Assembly: GCA_035285545.1 (NCBI GenBank)
Contig: JAYKGY010000144.1
Location: 1-24,202 of the forward strand
Reading direction: 5' to 3'
DNA: 24,202 nucleotides
Origin: Snowella sp.
GTDB taxonomy: Bacteria; Cyanobacteriota; Cyanobacteriia; Cyanobacteriales; Microcystaceae
Positions 6,001-12,000 of the stretch are shown here, piece by piece. Each line of letters begins with the position of its first letter. Within the stretch, counting starts at the first letter, position 1. A program made the position numbers.

Positions 6001-9000
6001 CTTTATCATAGATAATGGGGCGGGTTATGAATATCAATGACATCGAATGATGACTTAGTTGGCAGTTCATCTATTTAATCGCTCATCCCGTGTCAAAAAT
6101 AAGGGTAAAAAAAGACTTAATAAAAATTAATCATGACATTGGCTGATGGGGATTGAGTTGACTGCTTCAATATTGTTTTAATATTGCTTCCCTTAAGTTC
6201 CTAATCTCAGAAATGGCAAAACTAAAAACTTAGGGTATGATTTAATTTACCTTGTATTTTGACCTTATTTCAGTTTTAATAGTATCTAAACAGCAAGAGA
6301 AGTACAACAAAAAGTTATTCGTTTTATTGGATTTAAAAGTTAACAATTCGATTGTGATATTGAGAGAGGTTGTTTGATGAACTGGCTTAAAACATTTCCA
6401 CTATACGGCGTAATTCTCTTTGCAGCTTCCCCATTAATGGCGTTTTCTTCTATGTCCTATCCTCAACAGAATGATGGGATTAGTCCTCAGCAGATCAGTC
6501 TCCAATTTCCTACCGTTCGCGATCGCGGTGCGCCGATAACAACGGGCGGTGGGGGAACCCGTGGGCCAGGGTCAGGCTGCTTACAAACGAAAGAGGGCGA
6601 GTTATCCGTCAATGCCTTAACCCCGAATTACAGCAATATTGCAACCACTGCTTCAACCCAACCCGTATTTTACTATTATCTTCCTGCCACTGCTGCTAAA
6701 TTCGGTGAGTTGGTGATTACGGACGAAAGCGATCAGCCCGTTTATCAAACGATTTTTAATTTACCGACCCAAGCAGGTATTATCCGCTTAGCAGTATCCC
6801 CGACAAAACCCCTATCGGCGGATAAATTTTATCAATGGTCTTTTAAAATTATTTGTAATCCGAAACAGCGCAGTAAGGATATTGTCCTAGAGGGCACGTT
6901 GGAATATCAACCGTTAGGGGGTCAGGAGGTATCGAGTCTAGCCCATAAAGATCCTTTAGAAAAAGCCAAATTTTATGCCCAAAAAGGCATTTGGTTAGAT
7001 ACGTTGGATCAGGTGGCCCAAGTTCGCGCCCAGTCGCCTCAAGATTGGACGGAGCTATTAGGATCGGTCGGTCTAGAAACGATCAGTGCCCAGCCGTTAG
7101 TCGAATGCTGTCAATCGGGTCAAGCTGCCTCGTCTGCCTTGAGCAATCACTCTCAAATGCCCTCTCCTGTAAACTAATTGATGCTGGATTCCCTGTGGAC
7201 AAAGGTTAAGCCTTTTTTTTGGCGATCGCGTGGTGTGTGGATTGCAACGCCAACTGTGGCGGGGTTAGTGATCCTCCTGCGCTTAAGTGGGATTTTACAG
7301 GGGTGGGAATGGACGACCTATGATTTGTATCTGCGTCTGCGACCCCCTGAAACCAGCGATCGCCGTATTGGGATAGTGGGAATTGATGAAAATGATGTGC
7401 GCCACCTCCAAGGCTCGATTATTCCCGATGGCATCCTAGCCGACTTACTGGAAAAACTCATTGCCATGAAGCCGAGAGCCATTGGCTTAGATATATATCG
7501 GGATTTACCCGTTCCCCCAGGGCAGGACAAATTACTCAAAATTTTCAAAGATACCCCCAATTTAGTGGGGATTCAAAAAGTGGCGGGAGAAGCTGGGCGG
7601 GAAACCGTTGCGGCCTCTTCCATTCTTAAGGCAAAAGGGCAAGTGGGTGCCAATGACCTCCCCATTGATGCGGATAATCGTGTCCGTCGAGGTTTTTTTT
7701 ATTTAAGTGACGGCAAAGATAATGTCTATAGCTTCGCGCTCCATCTAGCGGGCCATTATTTAGCCAAAGAGCAAATTTCTCCTGAGCTTCTCCCCAATAG
7801 CGACCACTGGAAAATGGGGAAAGCAGTGTTTGTTCCCCTCGAAAACAATGATGGTTCCTATGTGTGGGCAGATACAAGGGGCTTTCAACTGTTGATTAAC
7901 TATCGGGGGGGAAATAAATTTTTTGATACGGTTTCCATGACCGATATTCTCGAAAATCGAGTTTCGCCGGATTGGGGGCGCGATCGCGTTATTTTGATTG
8001 GAAAAGTCGGAGAAAGCTTCAAGGATGTTTTTTTTACGCCCTACAGTAGTGTTTTTGGACTGGCCCAAGGTATTCCGGGGGTTGAAATTCATGCCACCCT
8101 TACTAGTCAAATTATTGGGGCTGCCCTAGAGAGCCGACCGCTGATCCAATCCTGGTCTGAACCGACGGAATGGTTATGGATTTTAGCTTGGTCTGGCATC
8201 GGTGCCACCATTAGTTGGCAGTTTCGTTATGTGTCCGGTAGCCGAAAAAAATCCTGGGTTCGTTGGGGGTTAGTGCTGTTGAGTATGGGCACCCTCTTTG
8301 GTTCAACCTATGGTGCTTTGATACTGGGTTGGTGGTTACCCGTTATTCCTCCCTTTTTGGCCCTCTTGGGGTCGGCGATCGCCATTACAGCTTATATTGC
8401 CCGTACAGGAGTGGAAATACGGAAAACCTTTGGTCGCTATTTAACCGATGCCGTTGTGGCCAACCTATTAGAAAATCCCAGTGGTTTAAGCTTAGGCGGA
8501 GAAAGACGAAAGATTACCATTTTAACCTCCGATTTACGGGGATTTACTGCCAACTCAGAGCGTCTCTCCCCCGAAGAAGTCATTAAAATTCTGAACTTTT
8601 ATTTGGGTCACATGGCAGAAGTGATCACAAAATACCAAGGCACCATTGATGAATTTATGGGAGACGGCATCCTAGTCCTTTTTGGTGCACCAACCTATCA
8701 GGAAGATGATGCTCAACGGGCAGTAGCTTGTGCCATAGAAATGCAATTAGCCATGATTCCTGTCAATCAACAAATGAAAGCTTGGGGATTGGCTCCCTTA
8801 GCAATGGGAATCGGAATTAATACCGGAGAAGTGGTCGTAGGCAATATTGGCTCAGAAAAACGAACTAAGTACGGTATTGTGGGCAATCACGTGAATCTCA
8901 CCTATCGCATCGAATCCTATACCACAGGAGGACAAATCCTCATCTCTGAATCCACCTATCAGGAAGCAGGAGAAGGCGTAATCGTTCAGGGAAGCAAAAT

Positions 9001-12000
9001 CGTTCAACCCAAGGGCATTCAAAACCCGATTACCATTTATGATATTGGCGGCATGAAGCATCCGTTTAATCTACAACTCACCCAAGAAGCGGAACAATTT
9101 TTTCCCTTACCGGAAGCCTTACCGATTCAATATTGTTTATTGGAAGAAAAGCATATTAGCCAACAACTCTTTCACGGGAAATTGGTTAAGTTATCTGAAA
9201 AGGGAGCAGAAGTTGAAGCTGAAACCCATCCTCCTGCGTTAACCAATCTTAAGATCAATTTACTGACAACAGACACCGAAAAAAGCGAGGATATTTATGC
9301 AAAGGTCGTGGATCAGTCCGCGCAATCTGGAAAATTTTATGTTTATTTCACAGCAAAACCGCCAATCATAGCCCAAAAATTCAACGATCTTTATCAACGT
9401 CTTCAAAATTAAACGATTCAAACATCAATTAATTGATTGATTAATTATCCACAGGAAAACCCTCTATGCAATTTCTCTTTCTCGGCTCAGGTTCAGCTTT
9501 TACGGTCGGTTCCGACAACTTTCAATCCAATATGCTGTTTATTAGTGAAACAGGCAAAAAGCTCCTCATTGATTGTGGTACTGATATTCGCTTTTCCTTG
9601 CATGAAGCCGAGTTATCCTATTTAGATATTACCGATATTTATATTAGCCATTTACATTCCGATCATGTAGGCGGGTTGGAGTATATCGGATTTAGTACCA
9701 AATTTGATCCGCGTTGTGAGCGACCAACACTCTATCTCAGTCAAGATATTGCGGTTGAACTGTGGCATAAAAGTTTAGCAGGGGGAATGGAAGCCATTGA
9801 AGGAGAATTGGCGACCCTAGAGACATTTTTTAGAGTTCATCCCCTAAAGCCTAAAGGTTGTTTTAGTTGGGAAAATATTAACTTTAATTTAGTAAAGTTA
9901 AATCATGTTGATACGGGTTTTTTGTTAATGCCTGCCTATGGTTTATTTTTTGAAATTAATAACCAAAAAATCTTTTTAAGTAACGATACGAAACTCTGTT
10001 TTGAAGAACTTATTCAATACTATCAACAGGCTAATTTGATTTTTCATGATTGTGAGATTGCCCAATTTCCCACGACCGTCCATGCCCATTATCAGGAACT
10101 CGCCCATTTACCCCCAGAGATTAAACAAAAAATGTGGCTGTATGGTTATCAGCAGGGTCAATTGCCGGATGCGACAAAGGATGGTTTTTTAGGGTTTGTC
10201 AAACGCGGTCAAGTGTTTGAGTTTTAAGGCTGACTATCGCCCCCTCGATGCCCCTGGTGGTACTGGGATTTGGGATTTGGGTCGTTTACCTTCAGGGAAA
10301 GTGATTAAAATTTTGTCGTTTTCTTGTAAGCCGGAGCGAATTTCGGTTTTATCATTGACGGTTACCCCCGTTTGAATCGGAATAAATTGGCTTTGTCCGT
10401 CTTTCCAACGATAAACGCCGGTTCCTTCTATTTGACGAACGATCGCGACCGTCGGAACCACTAACACATCATTTAATTTATCCACTTCAAAGGTCACTTG
10501 CACATTCATCCCTGCTTTCAATAACGATTGCTGATCATCCAAAATCGAAACTTTCACTTCAAAACTGGTCACATTTTGCTGCACAATGGACTGAGGCGCA
10601 ATTTGGGTCACTTCGCCGGTAAATCGTTGATCGGGATAGGCATCAGCTTTAATTCGGGCTTTTTGCCCTAAACGCATTTGGGCAATGTTACTTTCGGCAA
10701 TATTGGTAACGACGCGATTCTGGGAAGCCAAGGAAAGAATAGAAGAGGAGGTCGCCGAAGAAACGGCACTGCCTGCGGTTGTGGGAGTCACAAAAGCCCC
10801 TGGATCAGCATACTTGCGCGTCACAATACCGGCAAAGGGAGCGCGAATTTCCATATCCTGAATTTGGGTTTGTACGGTTTTCAAATTCCCTTGGGCGGCG
10901 ATCACCTGGGCCCGGGCCTGGGCAATATCTTCTGAGCGAGATCCCGCCTTCGCTAACGATAGGGCAGCTTGTTTTTGTCGAACAACGGCTTGGGCTTGTT
11001 GGATTTCCTCTGGACGAGTGCCGACGGTTTGCAAATTTAAGGCTTGTTGGGCTTCTCTGACTTGGGCTTGAGCAATATCGCGCTGGGCACGAGAGTTGGC
11101 CCAATCCCGTTCGGAGATGGCTCCCTGTTGATAGAGTTGCTGATTTTGTTGGTAAACAATTTCGGCTTGACGTTGATTACTCAGGGCACTTTCGTATCTG
11201 GCTTTGGCCTGGGCCACTTCCTGGGAACGATTCCCAGCTTTCAGGCGTTGTAGGTTGGCTTGGGCTTGGGCTAGTTCGGCTTGAGCTTGCATAATATCCT
11301 GGGGTCGGTTGCCAGCTTCTAGTTTTTGGAGATTGGCTTGGGCGGCTAGCAGTTGGCCTTGCATTTGCAACAGTTGCCCCTGTAGGTTCGAGTCATCCAT
11401 TTGGGCTAATAGTTGACCTTTTTTGACGCGATCGCCTTCTTTGACATAAAGACTTTTGAGCACCCCAGCATTTTTAGGACTGATATTGATAGAAACTTCC
11501 GGTTGGATAGTGCCGTTGGCGGTGACGGTTACTGCTAAATCTTCCCGTTGAACCGCGATCGTCCCTTTTTCCTGTTTAACTTTTGCCTGGGGAAGCACAA
11601 CGGTTTGTTGATAAATTTGGTAGCCGCCCCATCCCAAGCCAATGAGTAAGATAATACCCAGAAGCCATTTTCCTTGATTAAGCAGGGAATTTTTCTTTTT
11701 TTTGTAATATTGCGTATTTTCTGTCACCTTACTTACCATAATTCATCACCCAGTCCCGTCACTCTCTTGGAGCGTCGTGCAGCAAAAAACGGAATGACTT
11801 ACCCCCTCCTTGTTTTAGTGTAGTGAATTCTTGAAATGGATGCAGCAGCCGCGTTGTTTGAATTTCATAAAAGTAGCAAGGCGAGAGCGTGTTATTTTAG
11901 AGAGGATTGGGGTTAAAATCAAGGTAGATTAACGAGTTCAAATTTAGATGAATTTAATCATTTTGAGCCAATCAATACCGATAAAAACAAACTCTGTTTT

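What a model noticed while it worked through the whole genome (the two positions that open the first line are those of the whole stretch)
6377..9412. DUF928 is the dedicated periplasmic partner of CHASE2 sensors (and of secreted TPR-CHAT proteases)
All four DUF928 genes of this genome sit directly beside either a CHASE2 sensor (three pairs, each with a different output: adenylate cyclase g03768, GGDEF-EAL g03119, AAA_35 ATPase g02882) or a signal-peptide-bearing TPR-CHAT protease (g01565), and the same adjacency holds in about three quarters of all genomes that have both families. Boldest reading: DUF928, a secreted Ig-like protein with a conserved disordered N-terminal motif (F-P-x3-DRGAP-x2-T-x-GGGTRG-x3-C), is the missing co-receptor or tethered ligand of the orphan CHASE2 sensory domain, and periplasmic CHAT proteases act on it, giving a proteolysis-gated route to cAMP and c-di-GMP signalling. 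New: a function and partner for DUF928 [...]
Evidence so far: Pairs here: C144 g03767/g03768 (3 nt apart, same strand), C120 g03119/g03120 (12876-16534), C107 g02882/g02883 (22295-25690, ends overlap), C58 g01565/g01566 (7619-11083). neighbours.tsv: DUF928 within 2 genes of CHASE2 in 1856 of 2419 genomes with both (875 of 1012 Cyanobacteriales); of CHAT in 1661 of 2365; DUF928 occurs in only 2557 of 189,784 bacterial species genomes. 16-sequence alignment: invariant P53, R62, C160 and others, two conserved Cys, signal peptides. AF2 model pLDDT 75: residues 40-65 disordered, beta-sandwich 88-177 (pLDDT>90) plus helical bundle 182-230; Foldseek: CBM/PapD-like Ig folds, E 1e-4. predict_complex of the CHASE2 region (1-400 of g03768, 21-row alignment) with [...]
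(Added by a program. Inside this text positions count along the whole contig: contig position 1 is position 1 of the stretch shown here. "Call 12" and the like, gene names such as g00115 and contig names such as C1 are that model's own, and its searches are not shown. The text may have been shortened before it was handed on; [...] marks where a part breaks off. The agent that wrote the report below was given it as the finding of a first reader that could run no searches.)

Follow-up and report, generated by a model that had tools for sequence, protein, structure and literature searches.

The report
Arginine-ended peptide signal for CHASE2 receptors
An exported cyanobacterial protein (DUF928) carries a conserved arginine-ended tail that is predicted to dock into the outer domain (CHASE2) of the membrane receptor encoded next to it, likely after an exported protease cuts it free, and this receptor likely makes cGMP, which gives a directly testable candidate signal for a sensor domain whose ligand is unknown.

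Summary
The adjacency is real: 42 of 73 DUF928 genes lie within 2.5 kb of CHASE2, 0.7 expected. DUF928 is not dedicated to all CHASE2s. It goes with one clade (acidic residue 84, Arg108); the others (Arg84) often sit beside FecR-domain genes. The likely active part is a loose tail of about 21 residues ending at an invariant Arg62. It occurs in up to five tandem copies, on an unrelated scaffold, and in four tiny exported genes ending at Arg-stop. A model of residues 33-62 with the CHASE2 domain passed: 0.65 against 0.00 for the best control. Peptide similarity tracks that interface in 41 held-out pairs. Release by an exported CHAT protease is inferred only. Corrections: the cyclase keeps the Cya2 glutamate, so it likely makes cGMP rather than cAMP, and a phosphodiesterase-like gene follows at 9466-10227. 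No paper found links these parts. The scan noted this module before on other DNA (128 notes, at least 80 genomes). Binding, cutting and the sign of the signal are untested.

The parts
6377..7177 (+). DUF928 gene (266 aa): likely exported peptide precursor
   Evidence: PF06051 E 5e-46, residues 58-241
6377..6442 (+). Likely signal peptide (residues 1-22, cut site judged by eye)
   Evidence: sequence; a hydrophobic N-terminal stretch in 241 of 263 DUF928s against 747 of 2343 genome ORFs; no dedicated predictor available
6500..6562 (+). Candidate ligand, residues 42-62 (F-P-x4-RGAP-x3-GGGGTR), ending at invariant Arg62 (codon 6560-6562)
   Evidence: interface residues; pLDDT under 50 at residues 54-60 in the free model
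6578..7105 (+). DUF928 body: Ig-like sandwich plus TPR-like helices, MtxA-like; Cys68 and Cys160 would staple the chain behind Arg62
   Evidence: model pLDDT 88.2; 4Z29 Z 9.3, rmsd 3.6, 144 aligned, Foldseek E 2.5e-5; disulfide inferred
7181..9412 (+). CHASE2 - membrane helices - Cya2-type cyclase - weak PilZ-like tail (744 aa counted from TTG 7178)
7295..8167 (+). Periplasmic CHASE2 domain (residues 40-330), D-type: D84, D105, R108, D160, G275, D283, G301
   Evidence: predicted peptide-binding pocket
8507..8968 (+). Class III cyclase domain with the guanine-selecting Glu492 (codon 8651-8653)
   Evidence: best PDB hit Cya2 2W01, E 6.6e-89, Glu kept; the E488K adenylate-cyclase variant 6FHT has Lys there
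9152..9334 (+). Weak PilZ-like segment (below Pfam cut-off)
   Evidence: E 0.0013, 19.5 bits against cut-off 22.5
9466..10227 (+).
   Evidence: PF23023 E 5.9e-25, above cut-off; beside 5 of 12 Glu-type CHASE2 cyclases and 0 of 71 others

Best explanation
DUF928 is likely an exported precursor whose conserved arginine-ended tail (residues 42-62) is predicted to bind a pocket of the neighbouring CHASE2 receptor, likely after an exported TPR-CHAT protease cuts it free behind Arg62, and this receptor likely answers by changing cGMP synthesis. Steps: (1) export by a signal peptide (inferred from sequence). (2) The tail is loose in the model, while the Ig-plus-TPR body is folded (predicted). (3) An exported CHAT with an intact His-Cys pair cuts after the Arg (inferred from gene order, repeats and HetF). 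What switches it on is unknown; the TpsA filament encoded in the same cassette, with its own conserved GRGG tail, is the best guess. (4) The freed peptide lies across CHASE2, with its middle as an added strand on a variable surface that sets paralogue specificity and its Arg end near invariant acidic residues (predicted; co-variation shown). (5) The Cya2-type cyclase makes cGMP and the next gene removes it (inferred from homology). Other copies couple the same receptor clade to GGDEF-EAL, histidine kinase, AAA or CHAT-like outputs (shown as domain content).
For: Complex model: ipSAE 0.65 in three runs, best of 3 controls 0.00. The mark was reached by 116 of 157 solved and 2 of 215 mismatched pairs (roughly valid, as my own alignments were used). 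Runs agree in at least 89% of contacts; partner pLDDT at least 66. No CHASE2 relative was found in the PDB by sequence or fold, so memory of a like complex is unlikely. 5 of 8 invariant CHASE2 residues lie in the 53-residue interface (p 0.007). Held-out co-variation: partial r 0.37 against 0.07+-0.10 (0 of 500 sets, 41 pairs); 0.34 (2 of 500) for the 33 pairs under 70% identity to any training row; 0 of 284 shifted interfaces and 0 of 1000 partner shuffles reach it in 38 pairs. Arg62 is invariant in 32 of 32 and 57 of 57 rows. Extra tandem copies occur in 24 of 263 proteins against 0.57 in shuffles, and the residue after those Args varies (G 18, F 8, L 3, other 5). Four small exported ORFs end at Arg-stop, all within 1.8 kb of a D-type CHASE2. 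The motif sits on a DUF4384 scaffold beside a D-type receptor in a genome where DUF928 was not found. CHAT is present in 18 of 18 non-cyanobacterial DUF928 loci of 12 kb or more, with the dyad intact in the cassette type. It rang in 13 of 13 genomes with DUF928 or its divergent form and in 1 of 6 cyanobacteria without. HetF-CHAT cuts strictly after Arg (PMC9457339, passages).
Against: No binding or cleavage was measured. The peptide was cut at Arg62 by my choice, so the model cannot tell a free end from a tethered tail, and the best-scored contacts are in the middle of the peptide, not at the Arg. Interface columns are no more conserved overall than the rest (0.53 against 0.53; 6 of 28 highly conserved columns, p 0.42). 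Column-wise mutual information put only 1 of the top 20 pairs in the interface (82 pairs). All D-type receptors form one clade, so their link to DUF928 is one evolutionary event. CHAT specificity varies: Leu for Runella, Met or Leu for craspases. Pro follows the Arg in 4 of 263 proteins and in the first repeat of this genome's C120 copy. No CHAT gene lies in this window. The genome with the DUF4384-borne motif has only distant CHAT hits. The CHASE2 profile did not ring within the fetched flanks of 15 of 36 non-cyanobacterial DUF928 loci, 7 of them among the 18 long ones. Ten of the 263 motif anchors could not be placed, and 9 more proteins had no anchor.
Confidence: 0.55

Rival explanations
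1. Tethered ligand. Whole DUF928 docks its tail into CHASE2 without being cut and holds the receptor in one state; repeats give avidity. If CHAT cuts, it removes or ends the signal rather than making it.
For: The same complex model and co-variation. Gly or Ser follows the Arg in 205 of 263 proteins, so the chain can go on flexibly; Pro follows in 4. The folded body is conserved, which a disposable carrier would not need.
Against: All four stand-alone genes found end exactly at the Arg. Repeat units end at the Arg with 0 to several linker residues. An intact exported CHAT is the tightest neighbour outside cyanobacteria.
Confidence: 0.22
2. The tail is a bait or inhibitor of the exported CHAT (or an adaptor for TpsA processing), and CHASE2 senses something else, for example a TpsA fragment.
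For: CHAT in 18 of 18 long non-cyanobacterial loci against CHASE2 in 11 of 18. 15 of 46 cyanobacterial DUF928s lie within 3.5 kb of a CHAT domain, 0.76 expected. The TpsA C-terminus carries a GRGG-type motif in 15 of 22. One DUF928 holds long GGVR runs (L130).
Against: It does not explain the passing peptide-CHASE2 model, the co-variation with the predicted interface rather than with the rest of CHASE2, or peptide-only genes beside CHASE2.
Confidence: 0.12
3. Co-receptor. The Ig-plus-TPR body, as in MtxA, is what binds CHASE2 or an outside ligand, and the tail is secondary.
For: The only fold match at Z 8 or more among 48,161 chains is MtxA, whose gene is also followed by a CHASE2 cyclase.
Against: Body similarity tracks the non-interface part of CHASE2 (rho 0.47) and hardly the interface (0.15), the reverse of the tail (0.11 and 0.38). 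The tail occurs without the body.
Confidence: 0.07
4. Shared regulation only: the genes travel together in an envelope cassette without direct contact.
For: 58 of 98 CHASE2 and 31 of 73 DUF928 genes have no such neighbour. The D-type link is one clade.
Against: Adjacency persists in tandem, divergent and convergent layouts; the model passes; co-variation survives control for the rest of both proteins.
Confidence: 0.04

Closest known systems
Synechocystis Cya2 guanylyl cyclase (PDB 2W01; PMC5995499, passages)
   Same: CHASE2 - membrane - cyclase - C-terminal extension layout; best PDB hit (E 6.6e-89); same guanine-selecting Glu.
   Different: The passages read name no ligand or partner for its CHASE2 domain; here a candidate ligand gene lies 3 nt upstream and a phosphodiesterase-like gene downstream.
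MtxA and its CHASE2 cyclase in Magnetospirillum (PDB 4Z29; PMC4439547, parts 1 and 3 of 7 and passages)
   Same: Exported Ig-like plus TPR-like protein encoded before a CHASE2 cyclase; top fold match.
   Different: MtxA has a folded N-terminal region in place of the loose tail; 13-16% identity; no function found (deletion without phenotype); no sequence hit.
Sinorhizobium NsrA with CyaK/CyaD1/CyaD2, and Burkholderia LysM-FecR with a CHASE2 kinase (PMC7529298, PMC13001267, PMC5192318, passages)
   Same: CHASE2 receptors that depend on, or are encoded with, an exported partner protein.
   Different: In my sample FecR-linked CHASE2s are the Arg84 type, outside the DUF928 clade; I did not type the Sinorhizobium or Burkholderia proteins. 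No direct CHASE2 ligand is named in the passages read.
HetF-PatU3 (PMC9457339, passages) and DdvA (PMC11506125, passages)
   Same: CHAT proteases in signalling; HetF cuts after Arg; DdvA has a periplasmic TPR-CHAT.
   Different: They cut (HetF) or are proposed to cut (DdvA) a regulator in order to remove it; neither is reported to make a peptide for a separate receptor.
Peptide hormone and pheromone precursors read by membrane receptors (natriuretic peptide with receptor guanylyl cyclase; plant PROPEP, metacaspase, PEPR; yeast alpha-factor repeats; Gram-positive quorum peptides) - recalled, no call
   Same: Working principle: exported precursor, tandem copies, cut at a basic residue, receptor with a cyclase or kinase inside.
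   Different: No shared families; periplasmic, with CHASE2 and CHAT. A likeness in how it would work, not membership.

Membership tests
DUF928 (PF06051) | Pfam score above the curated cut-off | tested here: met
   157 bits against 26
CHASE2 (PF05226) | Pfam score above cut-off, followed by membrane helices and an output domain | tested here: met
   220 bits against 26.3; helices by eye
D-type CHASE2 clade (defined here) | Acidic residue 84, Arg108, and placement in the clade with the diagnostic columns masked | tested here: met
   (95 of 95 in one clade with 3 degenerate members, support 0.95)
Cya2-type guanylyl cyclase | Glu at the purine-selecting position (E488 in Cya2) | tested here: met
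   Glu492
Cya2-type guanylyl cyclase | Measured preference for GTP | not testable with these tools
   needs an assay
   Glu present; Lys is the engineered change in 6FHT
MtxA-like Ig plus TPR proteins | Shared two-domain fold | tested here: met
   Z 9.3, rmsd 3.6, 144 aligned, next row 7.7
MtxA-like Ig plus TPR proteins | Detectable sequence homology | tested here: inconclusive
   no hit; 13-16% identity in fold matches
FecR-domain partners of CHASE2 | FecR domain (PF04773) | tested here: not met
   only DUF928 hits the protein at E 0.01
Protease-released peptide signal | Unit that repeats or stands alone with a fixed end | tested here: met
Protease-released peptide signal | Shown cleavage, and receptor response to the free peptide | not testable with these tools
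   only a complex model
Apyc1-like cyclic-nucleotide phosphodiesterase (9466-10227) | PF23023 above cut-off | tested here: met
   88.6 bits against 50; NCBIfam cyc_nuc_deg_phdiest far below its cut-off; activity untested

The most novel reading that the evidence does not exclude
CHASE2 is a general receptor for protease-exposed x-[TSVI]-Arg ends: a hormone-like peptide system of diderm bacteria. Caspase-like exported proteases report the state of a TpsA surface filament by cutting polyprotein precursors (DUF928) into paralogue-specific peptides for the D-type receptors. FecR-like, SH3 and MtxA-like neighbours, which carry a similar G-[VI]-R-G stretch, would feed the R-type receptors. One pocket would thus drive cGMP, cAMP, c-di-GMP, kinase and protease outputs, and in this window form a bacterial counterpart of a peptide-gated receptor guanylyl cyclase with its phosphodiesterase.
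Probability: 0.3. Interest if true: 0.92.

Novelty: new variant of a known kind. Interest (0 to 1): 0.8.

Why it matters
A 2023 paper still calls the CHASE2 ligands unknown (PMC10581220, passages), although the domain rang in 100 of 151 proteobacterial and 19 of 20 chosen cyanobacterial genomes. A 21-residue peptide and a receptor that is a close relative of the biochemically studied Cya2 make the question a one-experiment test. If right, it gives DUF928 a function, exported CHAT proteases a substrate, and cyanobacterial cGMP an input. It would also add a precursor-protease-receptor peptide system in the periplasm, with swappable outputs.

Tried and rejected
A search for longer fused forms of DUF928 found none among 2634 candidates; weak evidence. 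PDB sequence searches with DUF928, CHASE2 and a cassette CHAT gave nothing significant, so the protease's S1 pocket could not be compared with a solved one. The CHASE2 model (pLDDT 89.7) has no clear fold match (best Z 5.1; Foldseek E 0.16), which does not show a new fold. The Atlas search gave only unnamed clusters under 0.9. Column-wise mutual information did not recover the predicted contacts. Promoter and terminator scans were at chance level. The RNA search found one run at 0.06 share, which I did not lay, so expression is untested. A scan for peptide-only genes in this genome gave none with the profile and 4 hits of 33,380 frames with the looser pattern, judged chance; 3 of the 7 pattern hits in the loci were judged chance too. 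R before GT in FecR domains is not specific to CHASE2 neighbours: 9 of 10 neighbours have it (1 has K) and none of 17 other copies in one genome, but many FecR genes without CHASE2 within 1.5 kb have it as well. The putative MtxA-like gene L146 matched DUF928 only weakly (probability 9%) and 4Z29 not at all. My ORF calls in GC-rich genomes missed some real neighbours, so FecR counts there are lower bounds. Literature searches: DUF928 (1 paper), CHASE2 (68, 40 listed), sll1891 (1), TPR-CHAT/periplasm/two-partner secretion, CHAT domain + hemagglutinin + cyanobacteri + CHASE2 (0 with 3 terms), mtxA + FecR (0), CHASE2 + ligand + AlphaFold (0). Subscription papers and all supplements were not seen; the table S4 of PMC5587647 lists one such gene cluster.

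
Full report
Observation. The window holds DUF928 (6377-7177), a CHASE2-cyclase 3 nt later (7181-9412) and a metallo-beta-lactamase-fold gene 54 nt after that (9466-10227), all on the + strand. 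In 20 cyanobacterial genomes (15 with DUF928, 5 chosen without), 42 of 73 DUF928 genes lie within 2.5 kb of a CHASE2 domain against 0.7 expected; 40 of 98 CHASE2 genes in DUF928-bearing genomes have the reverse link; layouts are 36 tandem, 5 divergent and 1 convergent (6 partial CHASE2 rows and 4 DUF928 fragments were dropped first; kin are not independent). DUF928 rang in 82 of 251 genomes of the phylum.

The receptor is likely a guanylyl cyclase. Its best PDB hit is Cya2 (2W01, E 6.6e-89), and it keeps the Glu whose change to Lys makes Cya2 an adenylate cyclase. The downstream Apyc1-like gene lies beside 5 of 12 Glu-type CHASE2 cyclases and 0 of 71 others, 23 of which my pattern could not type. 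So the unit reads as input, cGMP synthesis and removal (inferred).

The wider cassette. Thirty-six non-cyanobacterial loci (Nitrospirota, Scalindua, Desulfobacterota, alpha-, beta- and gammaproteobacteria by record title) show DUF928 with CHAT (25), CHASE2 (21), TpsB (20) and TpsA (15); among the 18 loci of 12 kb or more the counts are 18, 11, 14 and 10 (several are related Nitrospirales). The cassette CHATs have signal-like N-termini and an intact His-Cys pair. This CHAT family rang in 13 of 13 genomes with DUF928 or its divergent form and in 1 of 6 cyanobacteria without. TpsA proteins end in a conserved Cys-x-GRGG segment (15 of 22, 5 more with variants).

Which CHASE2? The domain splits by pocket residues. 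All 46 cyanobacterial and 14 complete non-cyanobacterial DUF928-adjacent receptors have an acidic residue at 84 and Arg or His at 108; none of 41 further pairs, three of them counted already, has Arg84, though four have Asn or Gly there. With the six diagnostic columns masked, all 95 D-type domains fall in one clade with 3 degenerate members (support 0.95), so this link is one event. Only 2 of 34 non-adjacent non-cyanobacterial receptors are D-type: one in a genome with DUF928 17 kb away, one followed by a DUF4384 protein that carries the tail. Of 11 receptors from cyanobacteria without a Pfam DUF928 hit, 1 has the full signature, and its neighbour is a divergent DUF928 with the tail. Arg84 receptors often sit beside FecR-domain genes: 10 of 14 cyanobacterial loci listed and at least 9 among the 34 non-cyanobacterial genes. 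'Dedicated partner' therefore holds for a clade.

The tail. Among 263 non-redundant DUF928s in which the motif could be placed (of 282), the consensus is [FY]-x-PP-x-RG-x-P-x2-[RT]-x-GG[GA][TS]R (the Arg was the anchor there, and it is invariant without anchoring). Extra copies upstream occur in 24 of 263 (shuffles 0.57, at most 3), up to five copies, each ending at Arg. Four small ORFs with a hydrophobic leader end at Arg-stop: three lie 815-863 nt behind D-type receptors in three genomes and one upstream of a CHAT-like-CHASE2/DUF928 cluster. This claim was first met in earlier scan notes and then tested here. The model of DUF928 33-243 (pLDDT 88.2) leaves the tail loose.

Complex model and its test. 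Residues 33-62 with CHASE2 40-324, each as a 57-row alignment, scored 0.65 in three runs against 0.00 for the best of three controls; the mark was reached by 116 of 157 solved and 2 of 215 mismatched pairs (roughly valid here); runs agree in at least 89% of contacts, partner pLDDT at least 66. The interface covers peptide residues 42-62 and 53 receptor residues, among them 5 of 8 invariants (D105, D160, G275, D283, G301; p 0.007), but it is not more conserved overall. If the contact is real, peptide changes should follow interface changes. In the 53 training pairs the partial correlation was 0.43 against 0.13 (0 of 500), which is partly circular. In 41 pairs not given to the model it was 0.37 against 0.07+-0.10 (0 of 500), and 0.34 in the 33 most distant (2 of 500); the body followed the non-interface columns instead. 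After dropping 3 mis-anchored peptides, 0 of 284 shifted interfaces and 0 of 1000 shuffles reached 0.37. Single-column coupling did not recover the contacts (1 of 20). Pairs share ancestry, so these counts overstate significance.

Cleavage. It is inferred from the fixed Arg end of repeats and stand-alone genes, the tight link to an intact exported CHAT, and HetF, a cyanobacterial CHAT that cuts PatU3 between Arg117 and Ser118 and needs the Arg (PMC9457339, passages); Gly or Ser follows the Arg in 205 of 263 DUF928s. Against it: other CHATs cut after Leu or Met, Pro follows in 4 of 263, and the model cannot separate a free from a tethered end. Whether the peptide turns the cyclase on or off is unknown.

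Literature. DUF928 appears in one library paper, which notes a CHASE2/DUF928/WD40 cluster in one Nostoc and an acid-stress link for sll1891 (PMC5587647, passage). CHASE2 ligands are called unknown in 2023. Rhizobial CHASE2 cyclases respond to a protein signal through NsrA. The searches listed under Tried and rejected found no paper that links these parts. Ten papers were read as passages or parts only; no supplements. The hormone and pheromone comparisons are recalled.

Verdict. Odds: tail binds CHASE2 about 0.75; with release by CHAT 0.55. Interest 0.8. The scan has met the module often on other DNA; added here are the clade split, the held-out co-variation test and the cGMP reading.

Noticed in passing
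L040, L043, L046, L055, L056, L060, L065 and others (for example L065:7148-13004): Recurrent cluster: weak sigma-like gene, DUF1822, CHAT-like domain fused in front of CHASE2, DUF928. It recalls hetZ-patU3-hetF (likeness recalled, not tested) and suggests a protease output for CHASE2.
   Followed up: partly
L058:8891-10570, L062:8327-10003, L078:4543-6243, L087:4836-6608: DUF928 genes, tandem in two loci, lie opposite a transglutaminase-like gene of about 560 aa (PF01841), twice with TpsB nearby and without CHASE2: a second candidate processing enzyme.
   Followed up: no
L130:381-1553 and L128:1246-2319: DUF928s whose tail has decayed into long short-unit runs ending in or built on Arg (GGVR-type and RGSFN-type repeats).
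   Followed up: no
L140:4919-5533, L174:6967-7641, L146:4641-5528, L146:7044-7523: Exported SH3-domain and unnamed proteins beside R-type CHASE2 genes carry TG[VI]RG, LGTRG or IRTRG stretches, like the DUF928 end and the RGT of FecR partners.
   Followed up: partly
L222, L223, L259, L272: CHASE2 domains of the D-type clade that have lost pocket residues (for example Asn for Asp105, Pro for Asp283); two are the only CHASE2 of genomes in which DUF928 and this CHAT family were not found.
   Followed up: partly
L138:9741-10511, L166:4487-5287: A different MBL (class II phosphodiesterase-like) follows CHASE2 genes in proteobacteria.
   Followed up: no
L004:6659-10582, L071:1-3501: Long TpsA-like proteins fused to a C-terminal CHAT domain with an intact dyad, one in this genome.
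   Followed up: no
window 3950-6009: MoxR AAA ATPase and DUF4350 genes, divergent from DUF928; no recurrence beside DUF928 seen in the neighbour clustering.
   Followed up: no
G000:C122:1122-2531: A 470-aa ORF with a weak internal match to the tail profile (score 15.7); not examined.
   Followed up: no
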